Sequence record: PX405663.1
DNA from: a phage
Strand: one strand, 5' to 3'
DNA length: 45,326 nucleotides
Shown: one piece after another, positions 1 to 45,326 of the stretch
How the letters are laid out: every line of letters starts with the position of its first letter
Numbering within the stretch: the first letter of the stretch is position 1
Position numbers and translations under genes: made by a program
The notes under the pieces: model-generated
Seen by the model: the letters and a program-made list of their open reading frames with translations, nothing else
Told to the model about the DNA's origin: nothing
Databases searched by the model: none

Positions 1-818
1 TGGCACGCATCAACGCTGGGGCGGAAGTCGGCACGGGTAAGCCCCTTCTTGCCTCGGGAATACGCCTCCAGTGCGGCAATAGCGCGCTTGGATGCAAACT
101 TCGCGAATATCTCCAGCGCTTCTACCGAAATATCCCACTCCGACGCCCCGCCGCAATACGGCTGGAAGATAACCAGTCGCACGGTCGTAATGTCGTACAT
201 AGTTTGCAGCTTGCGCAGCAGGCCGAGCGCGTACAACATAAGCTGTTTGTTCTCTTTCGCCTCGACCTTATGCCGCCCGGTCTTCAGGTCGCCAACAATC
301 AGCATGTACGTCCCATCGGTCTTTTTCATGACCATGACCATATCTGCAGTACCGAACGTTTTAATCCTGTTGCCGTCGATCTCGTAGCCTGAGTGAAGGA
401 CGCGGGTCAGATCGGCGCGCATCTCAAGCTGAACAAACTCCGCCACTTCGATGAGCGGTCGCCAGTGGTCGATGTACGCGTCGCACTGTTTCACCATGTC
501 GTCGTTGACCAGTACGCCGCCTTTCGGTGCTTTCGGGTGTGCCTTTACTGGCCCCTTGCCTTCGTTCTCGACGTAGCACCCTTTATACGTCTTTGCGGTT
601 ATCAGCTTTTCACCGGCGATAATGCGGTTTAGCACCACTTCAGATACGGTGTGCATACTCGTACCGTTAATCGCGGCTTGCCCGGATTCGTTCGGGATAT
701 CTTTTTCTACCACCAGGGCAGCTGGGCAACCCATCCATTTTTTAGCACCGGATGGCCCGAGTAATGAGTGTTCCGTATTGCTACCGGATTGCGTCTTACG
801 TTTTGGTTTAATCGCCAT
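1..818 (-). CDS. Cas4/RecB-family PD-(D/E)xK exonuclease (DUF2800-like), N-terminal part; ORF runs off the window start and continues at 45199..44587 across the circular junction (about 476 aa in total)
   Basis: Codon-by-codon hand translation of the minus strand from ATG at 816..818 (TAATG overlap with upstream stop) is open to position 1: MAIKPKRKTQSG...WMGCPAAL...GTADMVMVMKKTDGTYMLIVGDLKTGRHKVEAKENKQLMLYALGL...RPSVDACQ; N-terminal Cys, D/E-K core with QxxxY, and CQWCRFADQC (C-x2-C-x5-C) spanning the junction are typical of Fe-S Cas4/AddB-type nucleases. Confidence 0.7.
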   Translation of the reverse strand, partial: MAIKPKRKTQSGSNTEHSLLGPSGAKKWMGCPAALVVEKDIPNESGQAAINGTSMHTVSEVVLNRIIAGEKLITAKTYKGCYVENEGKGPVKAHPKAPKGGVLVNDDMVKQCDAYIDHWRPLIEVAEFVQLEMRADLTRVLHSGYEIDGNRIKTFGTADMVMVMKKTDGTYMLIVGDLKTGRHKVEAKENKQLMLYALGLLRKLQTMYDITTVRLVIFQPYCGGASEWDISVEALEIFAKFASKRAIAALEAYSRGKKGLTRADFRPSVDAC

Positions 819-1306: not shown

Positions 1307-1825
1307 TTAGTCTTCCAGTTCGAAATAAGTTTCGACGATTTCTTTAAGATCTTTGTGGAAGTCTTCGACGTCGTCATCTTCCAGCTTGGCGATTGATTTG
1401 ATCTCGAACGATTCCAGCAGGTCGTCGAATTCGTCGTTGGCATCGTCGTCGTCACCACCAGCGATAATAGCGGCATACTGTTTGATCTCGTCGCGCATCT
1501 CTGCCAGCGGATCGGCATCTTTCTTGCCTTTGCCTTTCGCCGGTGCTTTTTTACCCTTCGCCGGTTTTTCGTCTTCGGCTTCTTCATCGTCGTCATCTTC
1601 TACGACTTCTTTTTTGGCCTTACCTTTAGCCGGTGCTTTTTTGGTTTTCGCCGGTTTTTCGTCTTCGGTTTCATCGTCGTCATCTTCTACGACTTCTTTT
1701 TTGGCCTTAGACGGCTTCTTGTCTTCCGGCTTACCAACGGCAGCGCCAACGGTTTCATAATGCTTAGCGATGGTTTCCAGTGCTACTACGCCGCGAGTAA
1801 TCAGGTTTACGATTTGTTCAAACAT
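1307..1825 (-). CDS. highly charged tandem-repeat protein (172 aa), first gene of the minus-strand arm
   Basis: ORF track; GGAGA SD; protein has two copies of an approx 25-aa block KAKKEVVEDDDDE..EDEKPAK.KKAPAKGK and an acidic C-terminal half; underlying approx 75-bp tandem DNA repeat near 1540..1720. Confidence 0.6.
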   Translation of the reverse strand: MFEQIVNLITRGVVALETIAKHYETVGAAVGKPEDKKPSKAKKEVVEDDDDETEDEKPAKTKKAPAKGKAKKEVVEDDDDEEAEDEKPAKGKKAPAKGKGKKDADPLAEMRDEIKQYAAIIAGGDDDDANDEFDDLLESFEIKSIAKLEDDDVEDFHKDLKEIVETYFELED

Positions 1826-2429: not shown

Positions 2430-4694
2430 ATGAGCTTAATTAAATTCGCTGTAACACGACCCGCTAAAAAAGGCGAAAAAGCCAGGGCGGAAAACTTCCA
2501 GATGACCACCGATGAATTTTTCGAATTTATCAAAGATGCGAAAGAAATCTCATCGGTGCATATCAACAAGACGGAAGATAAAGCCGAGTATGCGCGCCGC
2601 AAGCGTAAGGCCGATGGCATCGTAGCATATACCAGTGACGGCCTTCGCCGCAAGACCAGTGCGGTGGACCGCTCGATCCTGTTCTTCGATATCGACCGTA
2701 CCGACACCCGCACCTTACGCCGCTGCCGTAAGGCGTTCATTGACGCGGGTCTGGAACATGTGTTTCACACCACTACCGGCGACCGTCACCCGCTTAAAGG
2801 TGGAACGCGTTGCGCTCGCTTCCTGGTACTCACTGACAAGCCTGTACCGGCTGAAGACCTGGGCCGCGTCCAGTATGCACTATTACACCAACTGGGTCTG
2901 TCAGATGTGGACTTCGACGACTGCACGAAAGACACAAACCGCCTGATGTACCTGCCCCACCAGCAGTCTGTTATTAAGTGCCACTATGGCAAGCGCGCCC
3001 GCGTCCGTCGTCTGCTCCGCCTGGCTGACAAGCTGGGGGTGGAAAAAGAGGAAGTACGCCGCGAGCTTACCCAGGGCGACGACGCAGTGGCAGACGGTAT
3101 TCTGGACTGGTGCTTCCAGGCAGGATTCGAGGAGTTATCTTCCGGGCGGGGCTATGAAGTGCCGTGCCCGAACGAACATCTGCACAGCGGCGAAGGGTCC
3201 ACCGCCATAATGGTCAAGGATGGCGAGATCCGTTTCAAGTGTATGCACACCGGCAACGAGTGTTGCTCGGAACTGAATAGACACCAGCACCTGGCGCTAC
3301 GTCTTATCGGGATCCCGGACCACCTGAACGTCGAGCCACACAATATGTCCCGTAAGCAAATCGCCGCCATCCTTCCGGGGCTGGACGACGAGGAAGTCGA
3401 ATCCTTATATGAACATATTGTTGATGCGGTTGGAGACGGCGAAGAATACGGCGTGTGCACCGATGCGGATCTGGATAACGAGCCGGTTGCGCTGTTCAGT
3501 AAGCACGACCCGATTATCGAGGGGTTGATTAACTTTAAATCGACCTGGTACATGGCGGGTGAGTCGAATATCGGTAAGTCTTTCTATGTGCTGGGCCAGA
3601 TGGGCGCGGTTGCCGCCGGTATTCCGTTTGGTGGCGCGAAGGTCGTCCAGTCTCATTGCTTCTATTTCGACGCGGAAGGTGGCGAAGCCTCTAACCAGCG
3701 TAAAGAAGCATTGCAGATTAAATATGAGCACGACCTGGACAAGCTGCACATTATAGACCTGCAGTCACGCGGCTGGGATATCACCAGCAAATCAGGCTTG
3801 CGCGAAGTTATCAGCTTTATCAACCGCACCGCTAACGGCGAACCGGTTGGCCTGGTGGCGTTCGACTCACTCAACCAGACTGTTGCGTTGCGGTCCGCTG
3901 ATGCTAAACCGTTCGACGAGAACAACGCCAGCGATATGGGTGAAGTGGTCAAAGCGCTGAAGGCCATCGCGGAAAATACAGGTGGCAGTGCGGGCGTCAT
4001 CCACCACCCGGCTAAAGGTGCAAACGGCAGCAGAACGCCACGCGGGTCCGGCGCGCTGCATGGTGCTGTCGATTCTGCGTTCTTCCTGGAACAGCCGGAC
4101 GACAACCAGCCCGGACAATTGAACCTGTATCATGAGAAGTCACGTAACGGCATCAAGCAAGCGCCGCGCGGCTTCGTCCTGCTCAAGTGCAAGGTGAAGG
4201 TGGATCTCCGCAAGTCAGAAGCGTTCGAGGCGCACCAGTCCACCAGCACCGGGCCAGACTTCGGCGACGTGGTTGCCGGATGGGACGTCAAGCCGATTGC
4301 CTCCACGCCACGCGACGAGACTCTCTACCTCGTACCGGTTGCCCTGGCACCTTTCGCTATTGAACAGGCGAAGGCAGCAGGCAAGGCCGCGGTTAAGGAA
4401 GAGAACACCGCCGGACCGCGCAACGAAAAAGAGAAAGTGCTTTATGCGGCACTGGAAAAACTGATGGAAGATAACCCGGACCATACTGGATTCAGTAAAT
4501 CGGCAATTGTCCGCCAGGCGGGACTCGCGAAAGGCGGCACTTCGACGAAGGCAATCGACGATATGGTGGAGCGCGGGGTGATAGGTTTTTACACCGATCC
4601 GCACACCGGGGCCATCTATGGGTCGTCTAATTTGGTCATCAAATCGGATATCCCTATCACGCTTTCCGCGACCGATGACGATTTAAAAGATTAA
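2430..4694 (+). CDS. DNA primase-helicase (primase-polymerase-like N-terminal domain, zinc-binding region, P-loop NTPase/helicase C-terminal half)
   Basis: 754-aa ORF; FFDIDRTD and HVFHTTTGD primase-like motifs; CPNEHLHSG...CMHTGNEC zinc motif; Walker A GESNIGKS. Confidence 0.75.
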   Translation: MSLIKFAVTRPAKKGEKARAENFQMTTDEFFEFIKDAKEISSVHINKTEDKAEYARRKRKADGIVAYTSDGLRRKTSAVDRSILFFDIDRTDTRTLRRCRKAFIDAGLEHVFHTTTGDRHPLKGGTRCARFLVLTDKPVPAEDLGRVQYALLHQLGLSDVDFDDCTKDTNRLMYLPHQQSVIKCHYGKRARVRRLLRLADKLGVEKEEVRRELTQGDDAVADGILDWCFQAGFEELSSGRGYEVPCPNEHLHSGEGSTAIMVKDGEIRFKCMHTGNECCSELNRHQHLALRLIGIPDHLNVEPHNMSRKQIAAILPGLDDEEVESLYEHIVDAVGDGEEYGVCTDADLDNEPVALFSKHDPIIEGLINFKSTWYMAGESNIGKSFYVLGQMGAVAAGIPFGGAKVVQSHCFYFDAEGGEASNQRKEALQIKYEHDLDKLHIIDLQSRGWDITSKSGLREVISFINRTANGEPVGLVAFDSLNQTVALRSADAKPFDENNASDMGEVVKALKAIAENTGGSAGVIHHPAKGANGSRTPRGSGALHGAVDSAFFLEQPDDNQPGQLNLYHEKSRNGIKQAPRGFVLLKCKVKVDLRKSEAFEAHQSTSTGPDFGDVVAGWDVKPIASTPRDETLYLVPVALAPFAIEQAKAAGKAAVKEENTAGPRNEKEKVLYAALEKLMEDNPDHTGFSKSAIVRQAGLAKGGTSTKAIDDMVERGVIGFYTDPHTGAIYGSSNLVIKSDIPITLSATDDDLKD

Positions 4695-4794
4695 ATTTTG
4701 CGCGCATTGGTTGCCATTTTGCGTGCTTTTAGTCGGTCGTATTGGTTGCCGTGTAGTGTAAATATAGTGAATAGTTATGCAATAAAACTGCATA

Positions 4795-4965
4795 AAGTAA
4801 GCGGGACAAAAAGCGGGACAACCAGGGGGCGGGACAAAGCGGGACAGCACCCCTGTCCCGCCCCGGATGACGCGGCCTGGAGAGGAGCGGGACAGCGGGA
4901 CAGCACCCCAGTCTTTCAGACTAGACGGGGGGTCTGGCACCCCCCTCGTCTGAGACTGCATAAAA
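4795..4965. repeat. noncoding array 1: GCGGGACA(A/G) repeats in direct and inverted orientation ending in a conserved 51-bp imperfect hairpin (4908..4958)
   Basis: At least 7 copies of GCGGGACA within about 120 bp including the palindrome GGGACAGCACCCCTGTCCC; near-identical copy of the terminal element at 22101..22150. Confidence 0.8.
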
Positions 4966-5112
4966 TCCAGGATTGCATAATACACGGCAGCGTGATGCGA
5001 ATTGCGGTCGTCGACGAACTAGGCAACCAATACGAGTTGCAGAATGGTGGGTGAAAAATGCAGTTTGCAGTTTCAGCAGATAGCGATCAACTTTTTCATG
5101 CGCGTGATTGAT

Positions 5113-5169
5113 ATTGGTTGCACCCACCCTGGCACCCTGCTATATTGGTTGCACACCAACATGAGGACC
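5113..5169 (+). promoter_or_regulatory. tandem TATTGGTTGCA promoter-like motifs with TATATT -10 and conserved leader
   Basis: TTGCAC, 17 nt, TATATT; 27-nt stretch TATATTGGTTGCACACCAACATGAGGA is identical to the minus-strand sequence at 16214..16240. Confidence 0.55.
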
Positions 5170-5174
5170 GAACA

Positions 5175-5501
5175 ATGAAAGCGATTATCTGGAATTACGC
5201 AATGGCTATGGCGGCGGCACAAGAAGCGGCGGAGTTCGCCGGTGAAGGAGCGGAAGCGGTCGAAAGACTATCGGCAGCGTGGTCCGTTGTTCGCGTCACG
5301 CAGCAGGCCATCGCCTGTATGCTTGAGCGCCGCTTCGACACTATGGGAGAGATCCAGCCGTTGGCGAACGCTATCCAGGACTACGCGCTGGCATTTGCCC
5401 GTGAGCGCCTGGCGTATCGCTTCGGGATCGGTGAGACGGCAGCGACAAACGTCGCCCGGATTAAAGCCCAGCGCGAACTATTCGCCCAGCTTGCGAAATA
5501 A
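5175..5501 (+). CDS. hypothetical early protein (108 aa)
   Basis: ORF track frame, start moved to the ATG 7 nt after GAGGA. Confidence 0.5.
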   Translation: MKAIIWNYAMAMAAAQEAAEFAGEGAEAVERLSAAWSVVRVTQQAIACMLERRFDTMGEIQPLANAIQDYALAFARERLAYRFGIGETAATNVARIKAQRELFAQLAK

Positions 5502-10399: not shown

Positions 10400-11784
10400 T
10401 GCGTAACTATGCGGCAGAACACCGCGCACTGGAGCGCACGATCGCAAAGCGCAACCGACCACCACGCCCGACGCGCGTTGCGCAGGCCGTCCGCCTGTAC
10501 CAGCCTGATTGCCTTCCGCACCAGGTGGAACTACTGCGCGACACGAAGACTAAAATCCTCGGCCTGTGTTCCGGCTTCGGTGGTGGAAAGTCGTGGGTCG
10601 CTGCGAGAAAGGTCATCCAGCTTCTGACACTGAACCCGGGGCATGACGGCATCGTGACCGAGCCGACTATCCCACTCCTGGTTAAAATCATGTATCCGGA
10701 ACTGGAGAAGGCTTTCGACGAGGCGGGCTTCCGGTGGAAGTTCAACAAGCAGGACAAGATCTATAGCGTTCTGGTGAAAGGAAAATGGACCCGCGTTATC
10801 TGCGAGTCAATGGAGAACTACACCCGCCTAATCGGGGTTAACGCCGCGTGGATTGTTGCCGACGAGTTCGACACCACGAAGCAAGACGTCGCAATGGCGG
10901 CTTATCACAAATTGCTCGGTCGTCTGCGTGCAGGTCTTGTCCGCCAGTTTGTCATCGTGTCCACGCCGGAAGGCTTCCGGGCGATGTATCAAATCTTCGA
11001 GGTGGAGAAGGATAGCCAAAAGCGCCTGATCCGGGCGAAGACCACCGACAACCACCATTTACCGGCAGACTTTATCGACACGCTTCGCAGTCAGTACCCG
11101 GCTAACCTGATCGATGCGTACCTGAACGGTATGTTTGTTAACCTTACGTCGGGCGCGGTATACAAGATGTTTAACCGTGAGGAGAACGCAAGCACCGAAG
11201 AAGTGCAGCCGGAAGACACGCTGATTATCGGTATGGACTTTAACGTCACGAAAATGGCGGCGGTCGTGTATGTAAGACGGCAGCGTACCACCGAGAACAA
11301 GGAGTTCCGCGACGAGATTCACGCGGTGGATGAATTTGTGGACCTGTTTGACACACCGGCTATGATTGAGGCGATCGAGGAGCGCTACCCAGATCATTGC
11401 GCTGCCGGTAAGGTTGTCGTTTACCCGGACAGCAGCGGCAAATCCCGCAAGACGGTCAACGCGTCGTCGTCCGATATCGCACAACTGGAAGATGCGGGCT
11501 TCGAGGTGGAATATGACAGTGTTAACCCGCCTGTGAAAGACCGATTGATCGCGATGAATACGATGATGTGCAACTCGAAGGGTGTGCGCCAGTATTTTGT
11601 CAACCTGGATAAATGCCCTACACTAGCGAAATGTCTGGAACAGCAGGTGTACGACCTGAAGAAAGGCGAGCCGGATAAAACTGCCGGTGTGGACCACATG
11701 AATGACGCAGCGGGCTACCCTATTGCGCACTTGTTCCCTGTGATTCGTCCGATCGCCGTTGTTCCTACCGTAGATTTCTACTAA
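10399..11784 (+). CDS. terminase large subunit
   Basis: 461-aa ORF; Walker A GFGGGKS near N-terminus, ADEFD Walker B-like, nuclease-like C-terminal half. Confidence 0.85.
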   Translation: MRNYAAEHRALERTIAKRNRPPRPTRVAQAVRLYQPDCLPHQVELLRDTKTKILGLCSGFGGGKSWVAARKVIQLLTLNPGHDGIVTEPTIPLLVKIMYPELEKAFDEAGFRWKFNKQDKIYSVLVKGKWTRVICESMENYTRLIGVNAAWIVADEFDTTKQDVAMAAYHKLLGRLRAGLVRQFVIVSTPEGFRAMYQIFEVEKDSQKRLIRAKTTDNHHLPADFIDTLRSQYPANLIDAYLNGMFVNLTSGAVYKMFNREENASTEEVQPEDTLIIGMDFNVTKMAAVVYVRRQRTTENKEFRDEIHAVDEFVDLFDTPAMIEAIEERYPDHCAAGKVVVYPDSSGKSRKTVNASSSDIAQLEDAGFEVEYDSVNPPVKDRLIAMNTMMCNSKGVRQYFVNLDKCPTLAKCLEQQVYDLKKGEPDKTAGVDHMNDAAGYPIAHLFPVIRPIAVVPTVDFY

Positions 11785-15697: not shown

Positions 15698-16210
15698 CTA
15701 CAAACGCATCGGCATGATAACAAGGAAGGCACCGCCTTTGAACAGCACACGTGTCGCCTTGTCTACTCCCTGAAATTCCAGTTTTAAGCTATCAAACTTA
15801 CGGTCGAACAATTTAGCAATTTTGCAGGCGTCGGACAGGTATACCCCGGCAAACCCTATAGCCTCCACTTTAGCGCTGTCGAAAGACGTAACACGACGCC
15901 AGTCTGGGAATCTGCCGTCTATGATCTCTACGGGTATGGTACCGATTAATACGTCTTTACTATCAAAGAACGCAGCGGATGTGCCGTCTATGTTGCAGTA
16001 TTCGAATTTTGTAGGTAAGCGGCCTTTAATTGCTACTATTTTACTTTCACCTTCGGGAATAACCGCGGACCCGCAGAACAAACGATGACCGTCGGTGGCC
16101 ACGATGAATCCTTTCTCGTCGAAAAATACACCCTTCAGATAGTACCGCACGTCATTAGTTGCGGCGCACATCATAGCGGCTTTAAGATCGGCATAGTTAA
16201 CTTTAATCAT
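15698..16210 (-). CDS. truncated DnaN-like protein (DNA polymerase III beta sliding-clamp domain fragment, about 170 aa)
   Basis: Track ORF 15698..16657 trimmed to the ATG 7 nt after GAGGA; VRYYLKGVFFDEKGFIVATDGHRLF, IIDGRFPDWRRV and C-terminal VIMPMRL closely match conserved E. coli DnaN segments. Confidence 0.7.
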   Translation of the reverse strand: MIKVNYADLKAAMMCAATNDVRYYLKGVFFDEKGFIVATDGHRLFCGSAVIPEGESKIVAIKGRLPTKFEYCNIDGTSAAFFDSKDVLIGTIPVEIIDGRFPDWRRVTSFDSAKVEAIGFAGVYLSDACKIAKLFDRKFDSLKLEFQGVDKATRVLFKGGAFLVIMPMRL

Positions 16211-16213
16211 TGT

Positions 16214-16262
16214 CATTTCCTCATGTTGGTGTGCAACCAATATACTGCAACCAACATACGCA
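16214..16262 (-). promoter_or_regulatory. tandem TATTGGTTGCA promoter-like motifs driving the antisense DnaN-like operon
   Basis: Minus strand reads TATGTTGGTTGCAGTATATTGGTTGCACACCAACATGAGGA; 27 nt identical to 5143..5169. Confidence 0.55.
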
Positions 16263-21823: not shown

Positions 21824-22160
21824 TTAAGCGGGACAGGCGGGACGTCCCGTTCTGTCCCGTTCCGTCCCGCCTCCTGCAAAACTGCATACTTACGCACCAC
21901 ATTTGCATAAACTAAAAGCGGGACAGGGGTGCTGTCCCGATCCGTCCCACCCCAAAAATGTGAATGTCTATTCAGTTTTAGTGCATAAAACAAACGGGAC
22001 AAAAAGCGGGACAGAATTGGGCGGGACAAAGCGGGACAGCACCCCTGTCCCCGCCAGTGCTGCCGCGGGTTTTAGCCAATCAGGACAGGCGGGACAAAGC
22101 CCAGTCTTTCAGACTAGACGGGGGTCGATGGCCCCCCTCGTCTGAGACTGAATAAGGTTT
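21824..22160. repeat. noncoding array 2: more than 15 GGGACA-core repeats in both orientations plus the conserved 51-bp hairpin (22101..22150), inserted between the tail chaperone and tape measure genes
   Basis: GCGGGACAG, GCGGGACG, CGTCCCG, CTGTCCCG and others; the palindrome GGGACAGCACCCCTGTCCC is shared with array 1. Confidence 0.8.
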
Positions 22161-22218
22161 GTTTTAAATTCGCTGATACAATGACCGACGGCAACTGCAT
22201 AAAAAGGGGGACTGCATA

Positions 22219-24861
22219 ATGGCAGATCAGGCAGCGGGCATCACGCTCAAGGCGGACGTCGCGCAAATTAAAACGGCTAATACTGTGCTGGACACATTTG
22301 CGCAGAAATCCGAGAACACAGAACAGAAAGTAAAAAAATTAAACGACACCCTCGGCAAGTCGAAAAAGGTTACTGGCGACGCCGCGGGCGGAATGGAAAA
22401 GTTAGCGACTGAATCGCAGCGCGCCGCCGACGGCATGACGAAACAGGAGCGACTCGCCAGCCGATTAGGCATGTCGACCAAAAACCTGGGATTTGCTTCA
22501 CGGAACGCGGCATTCCAGTTACAAGATATTGCGGTAACGCTTGAGATGGGTATGCCGGTGCACCGCGTCATGCTTCAGCAGTTACCACAGCTAACCGGCG
22601 CATTCGGCGGATTAGGTAACACGCTGCGTTATGTTGCGGGCTTCCTCGGCCCAGTAGGGATCGGACTTGCGGCAGTAACGGCGACGTTAGGCGTGGGCGT
22701 GGCAATCACGTCACGGGCAGAGAACCAGGTAGCCGCGCTTAATAAGACGCTGGCGCTGTCCGGTAATATCTCCGGCCTCACAGCTAACCAGATCCTGGTG
22801 CTGTCCGAGAACGCTGAGCGCATGGGCGGGTCATTTCGCAAGACGCGTGACACAATCCAGGCGCTGGCGGCGGCGGGTGTGAAAGCGGGTGGTGACTTCG
22901 GCGCATTGGCTAAGGTAGTTAATGACTTTGCGAAGGTGTCCAGCCAGCCGATCGAGGATGTGGTAGCGGCGGTGGCGAAGCTGTCAACCGACCCCGTTGG
23001 CGGACTGCGTGCGCTGGCGGATAAGTATCACGTCGTAAACGAAGCGCAGATCCAGCAGGTACAGTCGCTTGTTGATGCGGGTCGTGAGACAGACGCAGTT
23101 GCGTTGGCTAATAAAACAGCCGCTGCGTCGTTCACTAGCATGACCAATGAGATCAAGACGAACATGGGAACGCTTGAGCGGTCTATGAACGTCGTCACAT
23201 CGGCAGCGAAATCTATGTGGGACGCCATCCTGGATGTAGGCCGCGCGCAGTCCTCCAATGAATCCGAGATGAAAGCGCGCGAATCACTGCAGCGGCTGAC
23301 CACTGCTTACTATGCCGAGATGAAAGCGGTAAACGCTGCCGGTGGGGTAATGACTGAAGCGCAGAAAGCACGTATTAACATGCTTTACAGCGAACTGGTC
23401 GCCCAGGAAAAAGTGGTGGCATCGCTCACCCTGCGTAACCGTGCTGAGCGAGACAACGCCCGCGCCGCAGACGAATCCGCAAAGGCGAACGAGGAGGCCA
23501 ACCGCACTGCCCGTGACCGCGCCGCGTTCGAGAAGGAATACGCCACCAACGCTAAGAAACGCGCCGACGAGATCGCCCGTCTCAATTTGCTGAATAAGCG
23601 CGGCGTTATCGACGAGAAAGAGCTTGCCGAGGCGGTGAAGCAGGTAAACGAGCGGTACAAAGACCCAGCCCCGAAGAAGGCCGCCGCTGTTCGCGTGGAT
23701 GCCGGTATGAAAATGCTGGAAGTCGCACGGAGCGAACTGGCCCAGCTTCGAGAATCCGGCAAGCAGATCGAAGCCAACGCATCGACGCAGACCCGCACGC
23801 AACGCGCTCAAGCGGCCTTAAACAAGCTGATCGCGGATAATGAGCAGTTAATCGCCGCAAGCAAAGAAAGGGCGCTAACGGCAGCAGAAAAGCAGCAGAT
23901 GGTCGAATTCGGACGCGTGAAGGAAGTGCGCGAGCAGATCGTCGAAGAAGCCAAATTGCTGGACGCGAAAGAGAAGCAGGTTAAGGCGCACGCGCAGATC
24001 GATGCCTTCGTTAAGAACCAGAACGCCGAACTAAAAGCCACCGCCGCGGGGTATGCGCTTTCCACTCGCGAAGCGGCAAACCTGCGCGAAGAATTGCAGC
24101 TAATTGACCGCCTGAAGCGGGTTGGCGCTAACGATACCGATATTGACAAGGCGGTGTCTAAGCTGCGAGAAGTGCAGGAAGCACAGACCGGCGCTAACGC
24201 CTCGTTATGGGATGGATTCAGTCGCGGGCTTAAAGATAGCGTGGATGAAATGGGTAACGGATATACGCAGATGGCGTCGCTCACGAAATTCACATTCAGC
24301 GCTATGCAAGACACGATGAACGAGTTTTTCGAGACTGGCAAGCTGAACGCAAAGGATATGGTTAAATCCATCCTGAGCGAACTAATCAAGCTGGCTACCT
24401 CGCAGGCGTTCAAGTCCATCGTTAGCGCTTTCGGTGGCGACGGCGGCAAAAACGGATTGTTCGGCGCTATATTCTCTGGCCTCACTAAGAATGCGGACGG
24501 CGGAGCGTACGCAGGAGGCAATCTCGCGGCCTATTCGGGGAAAGTCGTAAGCCAGCCTACCTTTTTCAGTTATGGCGTCCAGGCGTTCGCTAAGGGCGCT
24601 GGGTTGATGGGTGAGGCTGGACCCGAGGCCATCATGCCACTGAAGCGCGGGCCGGACGGGAAACTGGGCGTTGCCGCGTCTGGCGCAGGCGGTGGTATGG
24701 TCGTGACGACTAACGTTTACACGGGGACCGGTAAAACGGATACCAGTGTCAGCGGGCCGGACCCCCGTACTGCGCAAGCGTTCGGCAAGCAAATCACCGA
24801 GGCGGTGAAGGCCGAGATCGTGAAGGCTACGAAACCGGGTGGTGTACTTTACAAACGATGA
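22219..24861 (+). CDS. tail tape measure protein
   Basis: 880-aa Ala/Gln/Lys-rich coiled-coil ORF; synteny. Confidence 0.85.
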   Translation: MADQAAGITLKADVAQIKTANTVLDTFAQKSENTEQKVKKLNDTLGKSKKVTGDAAGGMEKLATESQRAADGMTKQERLASRLGMSTKNLGFASRNAAFQLQDIAVTLEMGMPVHRVMLQQLPQLTGAFGGLGNTLRYVAGFLGPVGIGLAAVTATLGVGVAITSRAENQVAALNKTLALSGNISGLTANQILVLSENAERMGGSFRKTRDTIQALAAAGVKAGGDFGALAKVVNDFAKVSSQPIEDVVAAVAKLSTDPVGGLRALADKYHVVNEAQIQQVQSLVDAGRETDAVALANKTAAASFTSMTNEIKTNMGTLERSMNVVTSAAKSMWDAILDVGRAQSSNESEMKARESLQRLTTAYYAEMKAVNAAGGVMTEAQKARINMLYSELVAQEKVVASLTLRNRAERDNARAADESAKANEEANRTARDRAAFEKEYATNAKKRADEIARLNLLNKRGVIDEKELAEAVKQVNERYKDPAPKKAAAVRVDAGMKMLEVARSELAQLRESGKQIEANASTQTRTQRAQAALNKLIADNEQLIAASKERALTAAEKQQMVEFGRVKEVREQIVEEAKLLDAKEKQVKAHAQIDAFVKNQNAELKATAAGYALSTREAANLREELQLIDRLKRVGANDTDIDKAVSKLREVQEAQTGANASLWDGFSRGLKDSVDEMGNGYTQMASLTKFTFSAMQDTMNEFFETGKLNAKDMVKSILSELIKLATSQAFKSIVSAFGGDGGKNGLFGAIFSGLTKNADGGAYAGGNLAAYSGKVVSQPTFFSYGVQAFAKGAGLMGEAGPEAIMPLKRGPDGKLGVAASGAGGGMVVTTNVYTGTGKTDTSVSGPDPRTAQAFGKQITEAVKAEIVKATKPGGVLYKR

Positions 24862-40014: not shown

Positions 40015-40233
40015 TTATTCCGCCTTTTTCCAGACTTCGGTTTCACTGTTCCAATTCCTTTTTGTGGCGTCGTAGTTGGTGCGGTGCCCGATGTGCACAC
40101 CCGTCGCCCTGAAGCCCTTAAATTTTTGCCAGCATACCGTCAACGGCAGCGGGTCGTTCATGCCCGCGATAAACCATACGCGATCGCCCGGTTTACATTC
40201 GCCCAGCTTGGTGAGTCGGTAATGATCTTTCAT
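40015..40233 (-). CDS. hypothetical protein (about 72 aa)
   Basis: ORF track 40015..40239; AGGAGA SD favours the second ATG. Confidence 0.4.
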   Translation of the reverse strand: MKDHYRLTKLGECKPGDRVWFIAGMNDPLPLTVCWQKFKGFRATGVHIGHRTNYDATKRNWNSETEVWKKAE

Positions 40234-40244
40234 CGTCATGTCTC

Positions 40245-40270
40245 CTAAAAATGGCGGGCTTGTCCCGCCG
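40245..40270 (-). terminator. intra-operon hairpin plus T-run (minus strand) whose stem is GCGGGACAAGCCCGC
   Basis: Read on the minus strand: stem-loop followed by ATTTTT. Confidence 0.4.
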
Positions 40271-40276
40271 TATTAA

Positions 40277-40450
40277 TTATTTTTGCGCTGCGCGGTAGCG
40301 GCGCTGCCGTTCACGCTCTTTTTTATTGCGGCACGATTTGCACTCGGCACGATACCCATCGGGGCTGCGCGCAGTTTTGCCGGTGTATTTGTGGAACTGG
40401 GATAGCGGCTTGACGCAACCGCAATTACTACAACGTTTTTCTTCAACCAT
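40277..40450 (-). CDS. small zinc-ribbon protein (about 57 aa)
   Basis: Track ORF 40277..40522 trimmed to MVEEKRCSNCG with GAGGA SD; CxxC...CxxC. Confidence 0.4.
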   Translation of the reverse strand: MVEEKRCSNCGCVKPLSQFHKYTGKTARSPDGYRAECKSCRNKKERERQRRYRAAQK

Positions 40451-40490
40451 TTCTAAAATCCTCGATAGGGCTAACCTGCCAACTATACTG

Positions 40491-40769
40491 CTACGCGACC
40501 AATTCAGCAACCAATAAATCACAGTCGGCTATGTTGTCGATGACGCGAACGTCCGCACCGCGGCGGGCCATTCGCTCATGTTCTCGTACCTGGTGCGGCT
40601 TCGGTTTTCCTCTGGGGCGCTTCACTTCGACGAACACTATTTTGCCGTTGATTATAATAATCAGGTCGGGCGCACCTGCGCGCCCCTCCCATGCCAGTTT
40701 GCGGCAGAATCCGCCGACCTCTTTCACCCGTCGCATCAGGTGACTTTGAATCTTGCCTTCTGGTGTCAT
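40491..40769 (-). CDS. VRR-NUC domain nuclease
   Basis: 92 aa; APDLIIIINGKIVFVEVKRPRGKPKPHQVREHERM matches the VRR-NUC D..EVK..Q pattern. Confidence 0.65.
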   Translation of the reverse strand: MTPEGKIQSHLMRRVKEVGGFCRKLAWEGRAGAPDLIIIINGKIVFVEVKRPRGKPKPHQVREHERMARRGADVRVIDNIADCDLLVAELVA

Positions 40770-43478: not shown

Positions 43479-44261
43479 TTAACGGCGGCGACGTTTGCGT
43501 GGCGCTTCGTCTTCGTCGTCGTCCTCATCTTCGTCATCGCGTGGCTTACGACGTTTGCGAGGTTTTTCATCTTCCTCGTCGTCGTCGTCATCGCGGCGCT
43601 TGGACTTTTTGGACTTGCGCGGCTTGTCATCTTCATCATCGTCATCACGACGTTTTGACTTCTTAGCCTTGCGCGGTGCTTCGTCTTCGTCATCGTTGTC
43701 CAGGTCTTCATCGGAGCAAGAAGAACCACCACCACCGAAGGATTCGCCGTCATCACGGAAGCGCAGACCCAGCAAGCCAGCACCGAGTCCCTTGCCGTTG
43801 GTATTGTTCCACGCCCAGATATCGAGTGACACGTTGCAATAACAACCGGAGTAGATCTCCTGGCCTTCGATCTCGTCGCCGTCGATGGTCAGGCCTTGTT
43901 CCGTCTGCTTCTCGCCGAGTGACGTTTGAATGATCGGCTGTTTGAACGATTTGGCGTTGATGTACAACATGCCTTCGAACTCTTCGGTTACTTCATCGCG
44001 CTCGTCGCCGTCGCGAACTGCGCATTCCTTAGAATCCTGTGCGTAGTGGCGGTCCATCCACTTATCGGCATTCTTCTCGGATTTCAGCTTGTCGGTGAGC
44101 ACTGCGCGCGCTGCCGCTTCCACTTTGTCCACCTGCGGATCTTCTTTATCAAGAAGAATCACGGCGCGGTATGCCGGTTTTTGTCCATCCTGTTTAGGGG
44201 TATCACGTTCCCAAATTTTCAGGAAACATACGCGCACATTTTTCAGGTTGACTTTAGCCAT
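43479..44261 (-). CDS. DUF2815-like putative ssDNA-binding protein with charged repeat C-terminal tail
   Basis: Track ORF 43479..44282 trimmed to MAKVNLKNVRV with GAGGAA SD; C-terminal repeats of DDDDE/KPRKSKKSKRR blocks; sits between exonuclease and polymerase genes. Confidence 0.5.
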   Translation of the reverse strand: MAKVNLKNVRVCFLKIWERDTPKQDGQKPAYRAVILLDKEDPQVDKVEAAARAVLTDKLKSEKNADKWMDRHYAQDSKECAVRDGDERDEVTEEFEGMLYINAKSFKQPIIQTSLGEKQTEQGLTIDGDEIEGQEIYSGCYCNVSLDIWAWNNTNGKGLGAGLLGLRFRDDGESFGGGGSSCSDEDLDNDDEDEAPRKAKKSKRRDDDDEDDKPRKSKKSKRRDDDDDEEDEKPRKRRKPRDDEDEDDDEDEAPRKRRRR

Positions 44262-44594: not shown

Positions 44595-45326
44595 TGCTTA
44601 AGTCCTCATCAGTGGCTTCAGACCATGCAGGGCGCGGGTCGTCGATTGGGGCTAATACCGGTTTAGCCGGTGCGCGTGTGATTTTATCACACAGCTTCGC
44701 CCACACTTTTGGTTTTTCGTCCTTCAATACCTTCTCGGCATCCGTAGGGCTGAGCAATGTTTCTTTGTACATCACATCGCGCTTGATCCGGGCCTTCGTG
44801 AAGATTTCAATCACTTCGCTCTCGTCCGCCCACTTACGGATCCCTTCCTTACCGGCAACCATCTTGAGGCCCAGCGATTCGCCATCGCCCGCCATTACAG
44901 CCTTAAATACCGCGGACTCGATCGCTTTGATGTGCTGGCGCATTGCGTCCAGGCCCTCATAAGCCTTGCGCAGTTCCGCAGCGCTCATAGCTCCGGGGGC
45001 CGCTTCTTTCTTACCACGCTTCGCACGTCGTGCCGCCTTCCGGGCTTCGCGGGCCATATTGCGGTCGTGGTTGGCGCATTCTTCCTCTGTCGCAATACTC
45101 ACGTCGTCGCCCAGGTCTTCGTCGGTTGCCGTTGGCGGTGTCATCGTATCGATTGCGGCCTTAGCGCGGGCACTACACTGATCCGCAAATCGGCACCACT
45201 GGCACGCATCAACGCTGGGGCGGAAGTCGGCACGGGTAAGCCCCTTCTTGCCTCGGGAATACGCCTCCAGTGCGGCAATAGCGCGCTTGGATGCAAACTT
45301 CGCGAATATCTCCAGCGCTTCTACCG
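44587..45326 (-). CDS. C-terminal part of the junction-spanning Cas4/RecB-family exonuclease (unique part 44587..45199; 45200..45326 duplicates 1..127)
   Basis: Track ORF 44587..45144 is the downstream part of a frame that stays open upstream to the window end and is in frame with the minus-strand ORF at 818..1. Confidence 0.7.
   Translation of the reverse strand, partial: VEALEIFAKFASKRAIAALEAYSRGKKGLTRADFRPSVDACQWCRFADQCSARAKAAIDTMTPPTATDEDLGDDVSIATEEECANHDRNMAREARKAARRAKRGKKEAAPGAMSAAELRKAYEGLDAMRQHIKAIESAVFKAVMAGDGESLGLKMVAGKEGIRKWADESEVIEIFTKARIKRDVMYKETLLSPTDAEKVLKDEKPKVWAKLCDKITRAPAKPVLAPIDDPRPAWSEATDEDLSNE
45200..45326. repeat. 127-bp exact duplicate of positions 1..127 (assembly overlap of a circular or terminally redundant genome)
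   Basis: Identical sequence at both window ends; the coding frame is continuous across the join. Confidence 0.85.

What the first reader, a model, noticed from the sequence alone, without database searches (positions are those of the whole stretch)
4908..4958. Conserved 51-bp imperfect hairpin present twice (4908..4958 and 22101..22150) with identical stems and different loops
CCAGTCTTTCAGACTAGACGGGGG-loop-CCCCCTCGTCTGAGACTG is identical in both copies in the arms while the central loop differs (GTCTGGCAC versus TCGATGGC), which implies selection on the structure rather than the sequence. The long imperfect stem with internal mini-palindromes (AGTCT-TTC-AGACT) resembles RNase III processing sites or structured regulatory RNAs more than a simple intrinsic terminator, since no U-run follows.
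Basis: seen in the sequence. Interest (0 to 1): 0.65.

Follow-up and report, generated by a model that had tools for sequence, protein, structure and literature searches.

The report
Conserved hairpin in phage iteron modules
The twice-repeated hairpin is real and is the structured end of a roughly 200-bp non-coding cassette of short repeats that sits beside the phage's replication helicase-primase gene, so it most likely belongs to the phage's replication origin, although a role as an RNA signal is not excluded.

Summary
The window is a complete Dhillonvirus (HK578/SO-1-like coliphage) genome. The 51-nt imperfect hairpin occurs exactly twice (4908-4958 and 22101-22150).

It is not a stand-alone element. 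It ends a ~200-bp repeated cassette made of an AT-rich palindrome box, six or seven GCGGGACA octamers in both orientations, and then the hairpin. One cassette lies just downstream of the helicase-primase gene. The other lies just upstream of the tape-measure gene.

Within Dhillonvirus the arms, bulges included, are invariant and only the apical loop varies. That is sequence conservation, not covariation. In more distant siphoviruses with a homologous helicase-primase, the same cassette architecture recurs at the same place. There the octamers are lineage-specific and a three-tier hairpin keeps its pairing through compensatory changes.

Octamer type tracks residues in the C-terminal winged-helix-like domain of the helicase-primase. 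The helicase core of that protein resembles RSF1010 RepA.

Best reading (about 0.45): an iteron-type replication origin plus a duplicated auxiliary copy, with the hairpin as its structure-forming entry or priming site. Main rival (about 0.3): an RNA hairpin at operon boundaries, acting as terminator, 3'-end stabiliser or RNase III site.

The SO-1 GenBank record already flags the two regions as repeats. I found no functional study.

The parts
4908..4958 (+). Hairpin, copy B (downstream of the helicase-primase gene). It has three tiers: CAGUC(U)/(A)GACUG, CAGAC/GUCUG, and GGGGGG(U)/(A)CCCCCC with apical loop CUGGC.
22101..22150 (+). Hairpin, copy A (upstream of the tape-measure gene). The arms are the same as in copy B. 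The apical part is GGGGGUC-GAU-GGCCCCC.
4767..4965 (+). Cassette B, the ~200-bp repeated module. It runs from the palindrome box through the octamer array and small hairpin, a spacer and two more octamers to the main hairpin.
   Evidence: The module is found in 159 phage records, all Dhillonvirus-like.
21960..22155 (+). Cassette A, the second copy of the module, about 80% identical to cassette B.
4801..4902 (.). GCGGGACA octamer (iteron) block of cassette B. Plus-strand copies start at 4801, 4813, 4829, 4839, 4887 and 4895. An inverted copy lies at 4854-4861.
   Evidence: 14 exact copies in the window against 2.4 expected, 13 of them in the two intergenic regions.
21994..22096 (.). Octamer block of cassette A. 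It holds (A)CGGGACA at 21994, GCGGGACA at 22006, 22021, 22031 and 22089, and an imperfect inverted copy near 22044-22052.
21828..21953 (.). Extra octamers in direct and inverted orientation, upstream of cassette A. They include the 12-bp palindrome CGGGACGTCCCG and the hairpin GCGGGACAGGGGTGCTGTCCCG.
   Evidence: The corresponding HK578 site is annotated as a predicted terminator.
4839..4861 (+). Small perfect hairpin made of a direct and an inverted octamer: GCGGGACAG-CACCC-CUGUCCCGC. The equivalent in cassette A is at 22031-22053.
   Evidence: The same site is annotated as a predicted 'terminator' in phage CS16.
4768..4781 (.). Palindrome box TGAATAGTTATGCA at the 5' edge of cassette B, inside an AT-rich stretch (GC 27-33% over 4750-4809).
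   Evidence: The box is conserved in distant lineages as two copies 21 bp apart.
21961..21974 (.). Palindrome box TGAATGTCTATTCA at the 5' edge of cassette A.
   Evidence: this and the box at 4768 are the only two matches in the window.
22174..22182 (+). TGATACAAT, an extended -10-like promoter element 24 nt after hairpin A. It is invariant in 19 distinct cassette A sequences. The cassette B counterpart is CATAAT at 4976-4981.
   Evidence: This is my reading of the sequence; the promoter scan reported no site in this region.
2430..4694 (+). Helicase-primase gene (754 aa), the presumed trans-acting partner. It has an N-terminal DxD..H domain, a CHC-type zinc motif, a RepA-like helicase core and a C-terminal winged-helix-like domain (residues about 666-737, nt about 4425-4640).

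Best explanation
The hairpin is the structure-forming part of an iteron-type replication-origin cassette. Cassette B (4767-4965), directly 3' of the helicase-primase gene, is the primary origin. Cassette A (21960-22155) is a duplicated second origin or origin enhancer.

Proposed sequence of events:
1. The C-terminal winged-helix-like domain of the helicase-primase binds the GCGGGACA octamers as independent sites, in either orientation.
2. The protein assembles there, and the duplex opens in the flanking AT-rich DNA.
3. The adjacent imperfect palindrome then folds into a hairpin on the displaced strand or strands.
4. That hairpin serves as a structure- and sequence-specific entry or priming site for the primase and RepA-like helicase, in the manner of the ssi hairpins of RSF1010.

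What is shown and what is inferred:
- Shown: the anatomy, the conservation, the position next to the helicase-primase gene, the structural conservation of the hairpin, the match between octamer type and C-terminal domain residues, and the RepA-like fold.
- Inferred: that the protein binds the octamers, that replication starts here, and every step involving the hairpin.
For: 1. Position. In every lineage examined, a cluster of 7-8-mers lies just downstream of the homologous helicase-primase gene. The lineages are Dhillonvirus, the VLCpiS11a group, Kagunavirus St162 and about eight metagenomic lineages, with 37-87% protein identity.
2. The repeats behave like iterons.
- There are 6-9 copies, in both orientations, at irregular spacing.
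- GCGGGACA occurs 14 times against 2.4 expected, and 13 copies lie in the two regions.
- The repeat sequence is lineage-specific: GCGGGACA, GTGTGGCA, GTGTGCCA, GGTGCCA, CGGACAA, TTCCGACA, AGGGATA, GGGGAGA, GGGGATG, TTGCGAGT. The architecture around it is conserved.
3. Octamer type tracks the helix-turn of the C-terminal domain: FSKSAI..GGT[S/N]T with GCGGGACA, FSRRAIL..GGSST with GTGTGGCA, and GGST[S/T] with G(T)GCCA. These lineages are about equally diverged overall. The small HTH proteins encoded upstream do not track it.
4. Protein fold. The AF2 model gives three helices plus a beta-hairpin at residues 666-737 (pLDDT 70-83). The helicase core's best structural matches are RSF1010 RepA chains (1olo, 1nlf, 1g8y; TM 0.64-0.68). 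Pfam AAA_25 matches at E = 2e-19.
5. An AT-rich dip (GC 27-33%) abuts the octamers.
6. The hairpin is stable as DNA on both strands. Its shape is kept by compensatory changes across lineages.
7. The cassette, octamers included, was duplicated into the late operon at different places in two lineages. A bare terminator would not need to carry its octamers along.
Against: - There is no experimental evidence of any kind. Binding and initiation are inferred.
- The match between protein residues and octamer type rests on few independent lineages.
- All cassettes point in the direction of transcription.
- The G-run is always on the 5' side of the hairpin.
- G.U pairs outnumber A.C mismatches on the sense strand, 11 to 4.
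- In several relatives a U-rich box (UUAUUCAUUC) directly follows the hairpin. These four points fit an RNA element equally well or better.
- The AT-rich stretch is short.
- DnaA boxes are not enriched.
- A second origin inside the tail operon is unusual.
- St162 has only one cassette.
- The RSF1010 analogy is incomplete. That system has two separate ssi hairpins on opposite strands, and the primase type here is only weakly indicated.
Confidence: 0.45

Rival explanations
1. The hairpin is an RNA element on the sense transcript, marking operon boundaries: the end of the early replication operon, and the junction between the tail-chaperone and tape-measure genes. It would act as a terminator or attenuator, as a protective 3' stem-loop, or as an RNase III processing site like those of T7. 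The octamers would be a neighbouring and functionally separate origin or regulator site.
For: - Both copies are co-oriented with the flanking genes, and so are all cassettes in relatives.
- The RNA fold is strong: -27 to -28 kcal/mol, z about -4.
- The roughly 20-bp stem with internal loops has the general look of T7 RNase III sites (from my knowledge of T7 R1.1-type sites).
- In five or more relatives a U-rich UUAUUCAUUC tract follows the stem directly.
- G.U pairs lean to the sense strand, 11 versus 4.
- Compensatory changes preserve the pairing.
- Both cassettes are followed by a -10-like element, so they lie at transcription-unit boundaries.
Against: - In this phage no U-tract follows. The downstream sequences are CAUAAAAUCC and AAUAAGGUUU, and the scan finds no plus-strand terminator-like site.
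- The complementary strand folds as well or better in 11 of 14 cases.
- No Rfam family matches.
- Invariant bulge bases and a conserved AUGGGG motif imply sequence-specific recognition beyond simple termination.
- A terminator function does not explain why the octamers were copied together with the hairpin, twice and independently.
- I found no transcript data for this group.
Confidence: 0.3
2. The element works as duplex DNA. The short palindromes AGTCT-N3-AGACT and GTCT-N-AGAC, flanking the G/C palindrome, would be operators for a dimeric phage regulator. That regulator would control the promoters just downstream (TGATACAAT before the tape-measure gene, CATAAT in region B).
For: - The arms are conserved as sequence, non-pairing bases included.
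- The centre of the dyad is free to vary, as in many operators.
- The hairpin centre lies about 55-63 bp upstream of the start sites inferred from the -10-like elements.
- Both strands are equivalent in folding.
Against: - The two arms are unequal (24 versus 19 nt), with spacings that differ between the half-sites. That suits a symmetric dimer poorly.
- Across lineages the arm sequence changes completely while complementarity is kept: AGTCT/AGACT, ATCATC/GATGAT, TCCTC/GAGGA, TCTCC/GGAGA.
- The candidate HTH proteins encoded upstream do not change with it.
- The compensatory pairs seen are what a folded strand predicts.
Confidence: 0.1
3. The element is a packaging (pac) or recombination site, or a selfish repeat that spreads within and between phage genomes without benefit to the phage.
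For: - The cassette occurs 2-4 times in some records.
- It was duplicated to different places in two lineages.
- Loop types are shared between A and B copies of different phages.
- LM40P1 carries the same extra C in both of its copies, which suggests gene conversion.
- Headful packaging is predicted for the genus (PMC9022532).
Against: - Neither copy is near the small-terminase gene.
- I saw no terminal inverted repeats, target duplications or transposase-type gene. The protein annotated as a 'transposase' is only a small HTH protein.
- The position next to the helicase-primase gene is fixed across lineages down to 37% protein identity.
- The cassette has no match in 5,426 complete E. coli genomes.
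Confidence: 0.05

Closest known systems
'Region A' and 'region B' repeat_region features in the Sodalis phage SO-1 GenBank record (NC_013600)
   Same: This is the same element. Region A (11214-11597) lies between the tail chaperone and tape-measure genes. Region B (40178-40657) lies after the helicase-primase gene. Both are described as direct, inverted and palindromic repeats that resemble each other.
   Different: I found no analysis of the hairpin, of the octamers as iterons, or of the wider family in the searchable literature.
Iteron origins placed next to their initiator-helicase gene: the SaPI pri-rep-ori module, and phage P4 alpha protein with its ori and crr sites (from my knowledge)
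   Same: - Short repeats in both orientations lie close to the gene of a primase-helicase.
- The repeat sequence is specific to each lineage and matches a C-terminal DNA-binding domain.
- In P4 there is a second, distant repeat cluster (crr) that is required in cis, which parallels cassette A.
   Different: - The protein families differ. Here the helicase is RepA/AAA_25-type, not an SF3 or D5-type enzyme.
- As far as I recall, neither the P4 nor the SaPI origin has a conserved three-tier hairpin as a fixed component.
- Origin function is untested here.
RSF1010 oriV: iterons plus the ssiA and ssiB hairpins, with RepA helicase, RepB' primase and RepC (from my knowledge)
   Same: - The closest solved structure to the phage helicase core is RSF1010 RepA.
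- That system combines iterons with conserved DNA hairpins that a dedicated primase reads once the DNA is unwound.
   Different: - RSF1010 has two separate ssi hairpins on opposite strands and three separate proteins. Here there is one palindrome and one fused protein.
- The primase type is only hinted at: DxD..H motifs, and a PF08800 match in 1 of 14 members.
- There is no sequence similarity between the hairpins.
T7-type RNase III processing sites (R1.1 and others; from my knowledge)
   Same: Both are intergenic, co-oriented with transcription, about 50-60 nt long, and fold as an imperfect stem of about two helical turns with internal loops. Neither is followed by a U-run. Several copies per genome share sequence.
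   Different: - This phage has no RNA polymerase of its own.
- Only two copies exist, each tied to an octamer array.
- Cleavage is untested, and there is no Rfam match.
- Both strands fold equally well.
Lambda nut and HK022 put sites: two-copy cis-acting RNA elements for antitermination (from my knowledge)
   Same: There are two near-identical copies per genome, co-oriented with long operons. In relatives the 5' arm can form a small hairpin next to a G/C-rich hairpin, and its loop region (CUCUAAC, UCUUAAC) faintly recalls boxA.
   Different: - There is no boxA or boxB consensus.
- The copies do not lie just after early promoters.
- No N-like protein has been identified.
- The element is always coupled to octamer arrays beside the replication gene.

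Membership tests
Iteron-type replication origin adjacent to its initiator gene | A cluster of short repeated protein-binding sites (iterons). | tested here: met
   GCGGGACA occurs 14 times against 2.4 expected, with 13 copies in the two regions. Equivalent clusters exist in all related lineages examined.
Iteron-type replication origin adjacent to its initiator gene | The repeats lie next to or within the gene of the replication initiator or helicase. | tested here: met
   Cassette B starts 73 bp after the helicase-primase stop codon. The same position is found in lineages with 37-87% protein identity.
Iteron-type replication origin adjacent to its initiator gene | The repeat sequence co-varies with the initiator's DNA-binding domain. 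| tested here: inconclusive
   The C-terminal helix-turn motif tracks octamer type across 8 Dhillon-like lineages and, more loosely, across distant ones. This is a correlation from few independent lineages. Binding was not tested.
Iteron-type replication origin adjacent to its initiator gene | An adjacent AT-rich DNA-unwinding element. | tested here: inconclusive
   A 60-bp stretch at 27-33% GC (4750-4809) abuts the octamers. It is short and has no recognisable 13-mer-type repeats.
Iteron-type replication origin adjacent to its initiator gene | Replication initiates at the site. | not testable with these tools
   This needs marker-frequency analysis, 2D gels or a plasmid origin assay.
RSF1010-type ssi (single-strand initiation) hairpin | The partner helicase is of the RepA family. 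| tested here: met
   Foldseek's top hits are 1olo, 1nlf and 1g8y, with TM 0.64-0.68 normalised to the target. Pfam AAA_25 matches at E = 2e-19.
RSF1010-type ssi (single-strand initiation) hairpin | Two ssi hairpins lie on opposite strands and are read by a RepB'-type primase. | tested here: inconclusive
   There is one palindrome, which folds on both strands. The primase domain shows DxD..H motifs, and PF08800 matches only 1 of 14 members. The profile has no PDB match.
Intrinsic (Rho-independent) terminator | A G+C-rich hairpin followed directly by a U-run. | tested here: not met
   No plus-strand terminator-like site is found in either region. The downstream sequences are CAUAAAAUCC and AAUAAGGUUU. 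Some relatives do have a U-rich box after the stem.
RNase III processing site (T7 type) | An imperfect double-stranded stem of about 20 bp with an internal loop, in a transcribed intergenic region. | tested here: met
   The hairpin has 20 pairs in three tiers with bulges, lies between co-oriented genes and has no terminator before it. This is a resemblance of shape only.
RNase III processing site (T7 type) | Cleavage by RNase III, or processed ends in vivo. | not testable with these tools
   I found no transcript data for Dhillonvirus or its relatives.
Any described RNA family (Rfam 15) | A match at or above the family's gathering score. | tested here: not met
   There are 0 matches at gathering thresholds across the whole window. 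Only sub-threshold, miRNA-like hairpin noise appears in the two regions.
Host repetitive element (REP/BIME-like) or prophage-borne element | Presence in host chromosomes. | tested here: not met
   The cassette has no match in 20,395 records from 5,426 complete E. coli genomes.
DnaA-dependent origin | A cluster of DnaA boxes (TTATNCACA). | tested here: not met
   There are 23 matches with up to 1 mismatch against 26.8 expected. Only two fall in region A and none in region B.

The most novel reading that the evidence does not exclude
The cassette is transcribed from its own weak promoter (GTGAAT-N18-CATAAA, conserved at the 5' edge of both copies). The product would be a structured RNA of about 160 nt carrying six or seven GGGACA motifs and ending in the three-tier hairpin. 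This RNA would act at the RNA level. It could work in cis on RNA polymerase as a put- or nut-like antiterminator at the entry to the late genes. Or it could work in trans as a decoy that titrates a host RNA-binding protein, as CsrB does for CsrA. This would be a new class of phage regulatory RNA shared by a large group of enterobacterial siphoviruses.
Probability: 0.08. Interest if true: 0.8.

Novelty: new variant of a known kind. Interest (0 to 1): 0.5.

Why it matters
Dhillonviruses and their Guernseyvirinae relatives are among the most frequently isolated coliphages and Salmonella phages. They are used in therapy cocktails and in defence-system studies. Yet the group is called understudied (PMC9022532), and I found no report of a mapped replication origin.

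If the cassette is the origin, three things follow:
- It gives a defined cis element, and a predicted code linking protein residues to octamer sequence, for a fused primase-helicase-initiator.
- It explains why escape mutations from the OLD defence map to the helicase-primase and its promoter (bioRxiv 10.64898/2026.07.10.737580).
- It offers a natural series of swapped specificities for studying how initiators and origins co-evolve.

The obligatory, covarying three-tier hairpin would then be an unusual origin component worth testing biochemically. If instead it is an RNA signal, it marks the early/late switch in these phages. Either way, annotators should stop calling small 'hypothetical proteins' across it.

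Tried and rejected
1. DnaA boxes. TGCATAA looked like part of TGTGNATAA, but DnaA boxes are not enriched.
2. HUH/IS200-type transposase reading the hairpins. The protein annotated as a 'transposase' (2090-2419) is only a 109-aa protein with a C-terminal HTH.
3. That HTH protein as the octamer reader. Its HTH is invariant across lineages with four different octamers. The Cro-like proteins of other lineages do not track octamer or hairpin either.
4. Alignment-based consensus folding across all lineages. MAFFT misaligns the arms and RNAalifold finds only 3 pairs. I used per-lineage folds, a Dhillon-like alignment and one sister lineage instead.
5. The covariance model from Dhillon-like hairpins is too sequence-specific to reach distant lineages. 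It reaches only L083, and L068/L070 at E = 0.005.
6. Strand assignment by folding energy gave no preference, or a slight minus-strand advantage. The G.U versus A.C count leans weakly to the plus strand. The question is unresolved.
7. Domain identification by sequence.
- The N-terminal profile has no PDB match.
- The C-terminal profile gives only a summed repeat artefact against BurrH.
- Full-length phmmer gives RepA only at E = 0.53.
8. The whole-model Foldseek search is dominated by RecA-fold hits, so the end domains were not classified.
9. The literature searches tried found no functional or transcript data.
10. GC skew over the genome follows gene orientation and does not locate an origin.
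11. Coding potential of the cassette is unlikely. The G-run, C-run and loop lengths vary by 1 nt between copies.
Full report
OBSERVATION

The arms CCAGTCTTTCAGACTAGACGGGGG and CCCCCTCGTCTGAGACTG are identical in the two copies, and the centres differ.

Each copy folds into one unbranched imperfect hairpin of about 20 pairs. As RNA the energies are -28.0 and -27.2 kcal/mol, z about -4. As DNA they are -13 to -15 kcal/mol, z -3.7 to -4.35, on either strand. A covariance model finds exactly two sense-strand copies in the window; its only other window matches are weak reverse-strand hits on the same two palindromes. It also finds two copies in each of three other complete genomes of the genus.

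WHAT THE WINDOW IS

The window is a complete Dhillonvirus genome (HK578/SO-1-like E. coli siphovirus) with a 127-bp assembly overlap at its ends.

Copy B lies in the 480-bp gap between the helicase-primase gene (2430-4694) and the small genes that lead into lysis, terminase and head genes. Copy A lies in the 395-bp gap between the tail-assembly-chaperone genes and the tape-measure gene (22219-24861). All flanking genes are on the plus strand.

THE HAIRPIN IS PART OF A LARGER CASSETTE

The repeat extends over about 200 bp: 4767-4965 versus 21960-22155. Reading 5' to 3', each cassette contains:
- a palindrome box, TGAATAGTTATGCA or TGAATGTCTATTCA, the only two matches to TGAATnnnnATTCA in the window. 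It sits in an AT-rich stretch, 27-33% GC in cassette B and about 35% in cassette A;
- a TGCATAA motif;
- four direct GCGGGACA octamers and one inverted one, which together form a small perfect hairpin;
- a spacer;
- two more octamers;
- the main hairpin;
- 18-24 nt later, a -10-like element (CATAAT, or TGATACAAT).

GCGGGACA occurs 14 times in the window against 2.4 expected, and 13 of these are in the two gaps. More octamers in both orientations, including the 12-bp palindrome CGGGACGTCCCG, lie upstream of cassette A.

CONSERVATION INSIDE THE GENUS

The cassette is present in 159 phage records, all Dhillonvirus by sequence, usually twice per genome. It is absent from 5,426 complete E. coli genomes.

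- Among 27 distinct hairpin sequences, AGTCTTTCAGACTAGACGGGGG never changes. The 3' arm changes only in the internal loop: TCG to TCCG, GCG or ATCG.
- Variation is confined to the length of the G and C runs and to the apical 3-5 nt.
- In separate alignments of 19 cassette A and 17 cassette B sequences, the arms are the most conserved blocks, followed by the octamers.
- On 10 distinct Dhillon-like hairpins, 91% of cells pair and 8 of 11 lower-stem pairs never vary. Only 3 pairs change on both sides, a result reached by 18-27 of 500 shuffles.

So inside the genus the signal is sequence conservation, including the unpaired bulge bases.

Phage LM40P1 carries the same extra C in both of its copies, and loop types are shared between A and B copies of different phages. 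Both facts suggest exchange between copies.

THE WIDER FAMILY

I searched with the helicase-primase protein and fetched the DNA around its relatives. The same architecture appears directly downstream of the homologous gene in many lineages with 37-87% protein identity. It consists of:
- one or two TGAATAGTTATGCA boxes, two copies exactly 21 bp apart in most non-Dhillon lineages;
- 6-9 lineage-specific 7-8-mers in both orientations;
- a conserved GGGTTTGYTGCCGA-like spacer;
- two more repeats;
- a long imperfect hairpin;
- in the non-Dhillon lineages, a conserved TTATTCATTCATGCA..ACACGGCARC box. Only the ACGGCARC part is recognisable in the Dhillon cassettes;
- a promoter region.

The repeat differs by lineage:
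- GCGGGACA: Dhillonvirus, L051, L081, L084
- GTGTGGCA: L080, L082
- GTGTGCCA: L083
- GGTGCCA: L085
- CGGACAA: L068-L073
- TTCCGACA: L065, L074, L078
- AGGGATA: L067
- GGGGAGA: St162, L060, L077
- GGGGATG: L079
- TTGCGAGT: VLCpiS11a, L054-L059

The hairpin keeps one shape in all of them: a basal stem, a middle stem and a G-rich/C-rich apical stem. The z-scores run from -1.9 to -4.0. The arm sequences differ between lineages:
- AGTCT/AGACT
- ATCATC(TA)/(TA)GATGAT
- TCCTC/GAGGA
- TCTCC/GGAGA

Further points on pairing:
- L082 has different octamers but the Dhillon 5' arm, with the apical stem changed from GGGGG/CCCCC to GGGUG/CACCC.
- L083 changes C-G to G-C in the middle stem.
- In the TTGCGAGT group, two sub-lineages differ at 4 of 26 pairs by changes on both sides, with no pair broken.

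A second cassette exists in Dhillonvirus, before the tape-measure gene. One also exists, at a different place, in VLCpiS11a, between the head-morphogenesis and spanin genes. St162 has only one.

WHO READS THE OCTAMERS

The 109-aa HTH protein encoded just upstream of the helicase-primase has an invariant HTH in lineages with four different octamers. Other lineages carry Cro-like proteins that track neither octamer nor hairpin. These small proteins are better candidates for the separate TTGGTTGC boxes, which occur 18 times against 2 expected.

The helicase-primase itself has these features:
- conserved DxD and H motifs in its N-terminal domain and a CPNxxH...C.H...C zinc motif;
- a RepA-type helicase core. 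Pfam AAA_25 matches at E = 2e-19. The best structural matches are RSF1010 RepA chains 1olo, 1nlf and 1g8y, with TM 0.64-0.68;
- a C-terminal module of three helices plus a beta-hairpin at residues 666-737, pLDDT 70-83.

In that C-terminal module a helix-turn motif follows the octamer type, among lineages that are about equally diverged overall:
- FSKSAI..GGT[S/N]T with GCGGGACA
- FSRRAIL..GGSST with GTGTGGCA
- GGST[S/T] with G(T)GCCA

Looser parallels hold among the distant lineages: GDRY and GGRY go with GGGGAGA and GGGGATG, and RRR goes with the CGACA and GGACA types. This is a correlation, not a binding test.

STRAND AND MOLECULE

- Both strands fold equally well. With RNA parameters the complementary strand is as good or better in 11 of 14 hairpins.
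- On the sense strand G.U pairs outnumber A.C mismatches 11 to 4.
- The G-run is always 5' of the C-run, and all cassettes point with transcription.
- No plus-strand terminator-like site is found in this phage. In several relatives a U-rich box follows the stem.
- Rfam has no match.

I cannot decide between single-stranded DNA and RNA from sequence alone.

MECHANISM

I commit to an iteron-type origin cassette (0.45). The helicase-primase binds the octamers through its C-terminal domain and opens the flanking AT-rich DNA. The palindrome then folds on the displaced strand or strands as the entry or priming site. Cassette A acts as a second origin or enhancer.

This reading rests on known systems recalled from memory. 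They are the SaPI pri-rep-ori module, P4 alpha protein with ori and crr, and RSF1010 with its iterons, ssiA/ssiB hairpins and RepA.

The main rival (0.3) is an RNA hairpin at operon boundaries, acting as terminator or attenuator, 3' stabiliser or RNase III site. Lesser rivals are a duplex operator (0.1) and a pac, recombination or selfish element (0.05).

PRIOR KNOWLEDGE AND NOVELTY

- The SO-1 GenBank record already marks 'region A' and 'region B' as mutually similar repeat regions.
- The HK578 and CS16 records annotate nearby small hairpins as predicted terminators.
- I found no functional study, no transcript map and no origin map.

The existence of the repeats is therefore known. The following appear undescribed:
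- the family-wide architecture;
- the swapping of octamers, tracked by residues of the helicase-primase C-terminal domain;
- the covarying three-tier hairpin.

I rate the finding a new variant of a known kind, with interest 0.5.

Noticed in passing
window 1893, 4707, 4742, 5023(-), 5114, 5145, 16233(-), 16247(-), 35881(-), 35893, 37548(-), 37565(-), 44318, 44334 and others: A second repeat system. TTGGTTGC occurs 18 times against 2 expected, mostly in pairs in intergenic or promoter regions (for example TTGCAC-17-TATATT at 5117-5145). The small HTH protein (2090-2419) has an invariant HTH in all Dhillon-like lineages and is a candidate reader of these boxes. Other lineages carry TGTTGGCTG boxes and a Cro-like HTH protein instead.
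   Followed up: partly
window 4768-4781 and 21961-21974; L060, L067, L068, L072 and others, just after the helicase-primase stop codon: Palindromes TGAATnnnnAT(T/G)CA lie at the 5' edge of every cassette. In most non-Dhillon lineages there are two copies exactly 21 bp apart (GTGAATAGTTATGCAGAAAAA, twice). From memory, this matches the consensus and spacing of E. coli ArgR operators (ARG boxes). That suggests a host architectural factor, but it is untested.
   Followed up: partly
window 5141-5178 versus 16207-16244: A 38-nt inverted repeat, 89% complementary, covers a TTGGTTGC box, a leader and a ribosome-binding site. The same promoter and 5' UTR cassette appears to be reused for a minus-strand gene in the head region.
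   Followed up: no
window 1-127 and 45200-45326: An exact 127-bp terminal duplication. It is most likely an assembly overlap of a circularly permuted, headful-packaged genome (PMC9022532).
   Followed up: no
window 1362-1697 and 43495-43713: A 90-nt tandem duplication (1513-1692) and TCGTCGTC-rich repeats lie inside minus-strand ORFs. These would encode acidic and lysine-rich low-complexity protein segments.
   Followed up: no
window 4401-4691 (C-terminal domain of the helicase-primase): A profile of this domain gives a summed E-value of 1e-17 against the TALE-like repeat protein BurrH (4cja), but no single stretch is significant. This is probably only a helix-GG-helix resemblance.
   Followed up: no
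Apical loops: window 4927-4935 and 22120-22127; L065, L067, L071, L072: The 5' side of the apical loop reads GGGTC, TGGTC or GTGTC in most lineages. In several lineages the loop carries an inverted, octamer-like sequence (TCTGTCGGA, TCTGTCCGA, TTGGCCAC). GTC is the T7 primase recognition core (from memory). Its relevance here is unknown.
   Followed up: no
Phage records MG065648 (Campylobacter phage A144), OQ221563 (Acinetobacter phage NJ01) and OQ291023 (Salmonella phage Kenya-K19): These records are Dhillonviruses by sequence (78-97% identity in the cassette), so their host labels look doubtful.
   Followed up: no
window 21919-21939 (minus strand): The only canonical terminator-like site in either region is on the minus strand: CGGGACAGCACCCCTGTCCCG followed by CTTTTAGTTT. 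It is built from a direct and an inverted octamer and could block antisense transcription into the tail genes.
   Followed up: no
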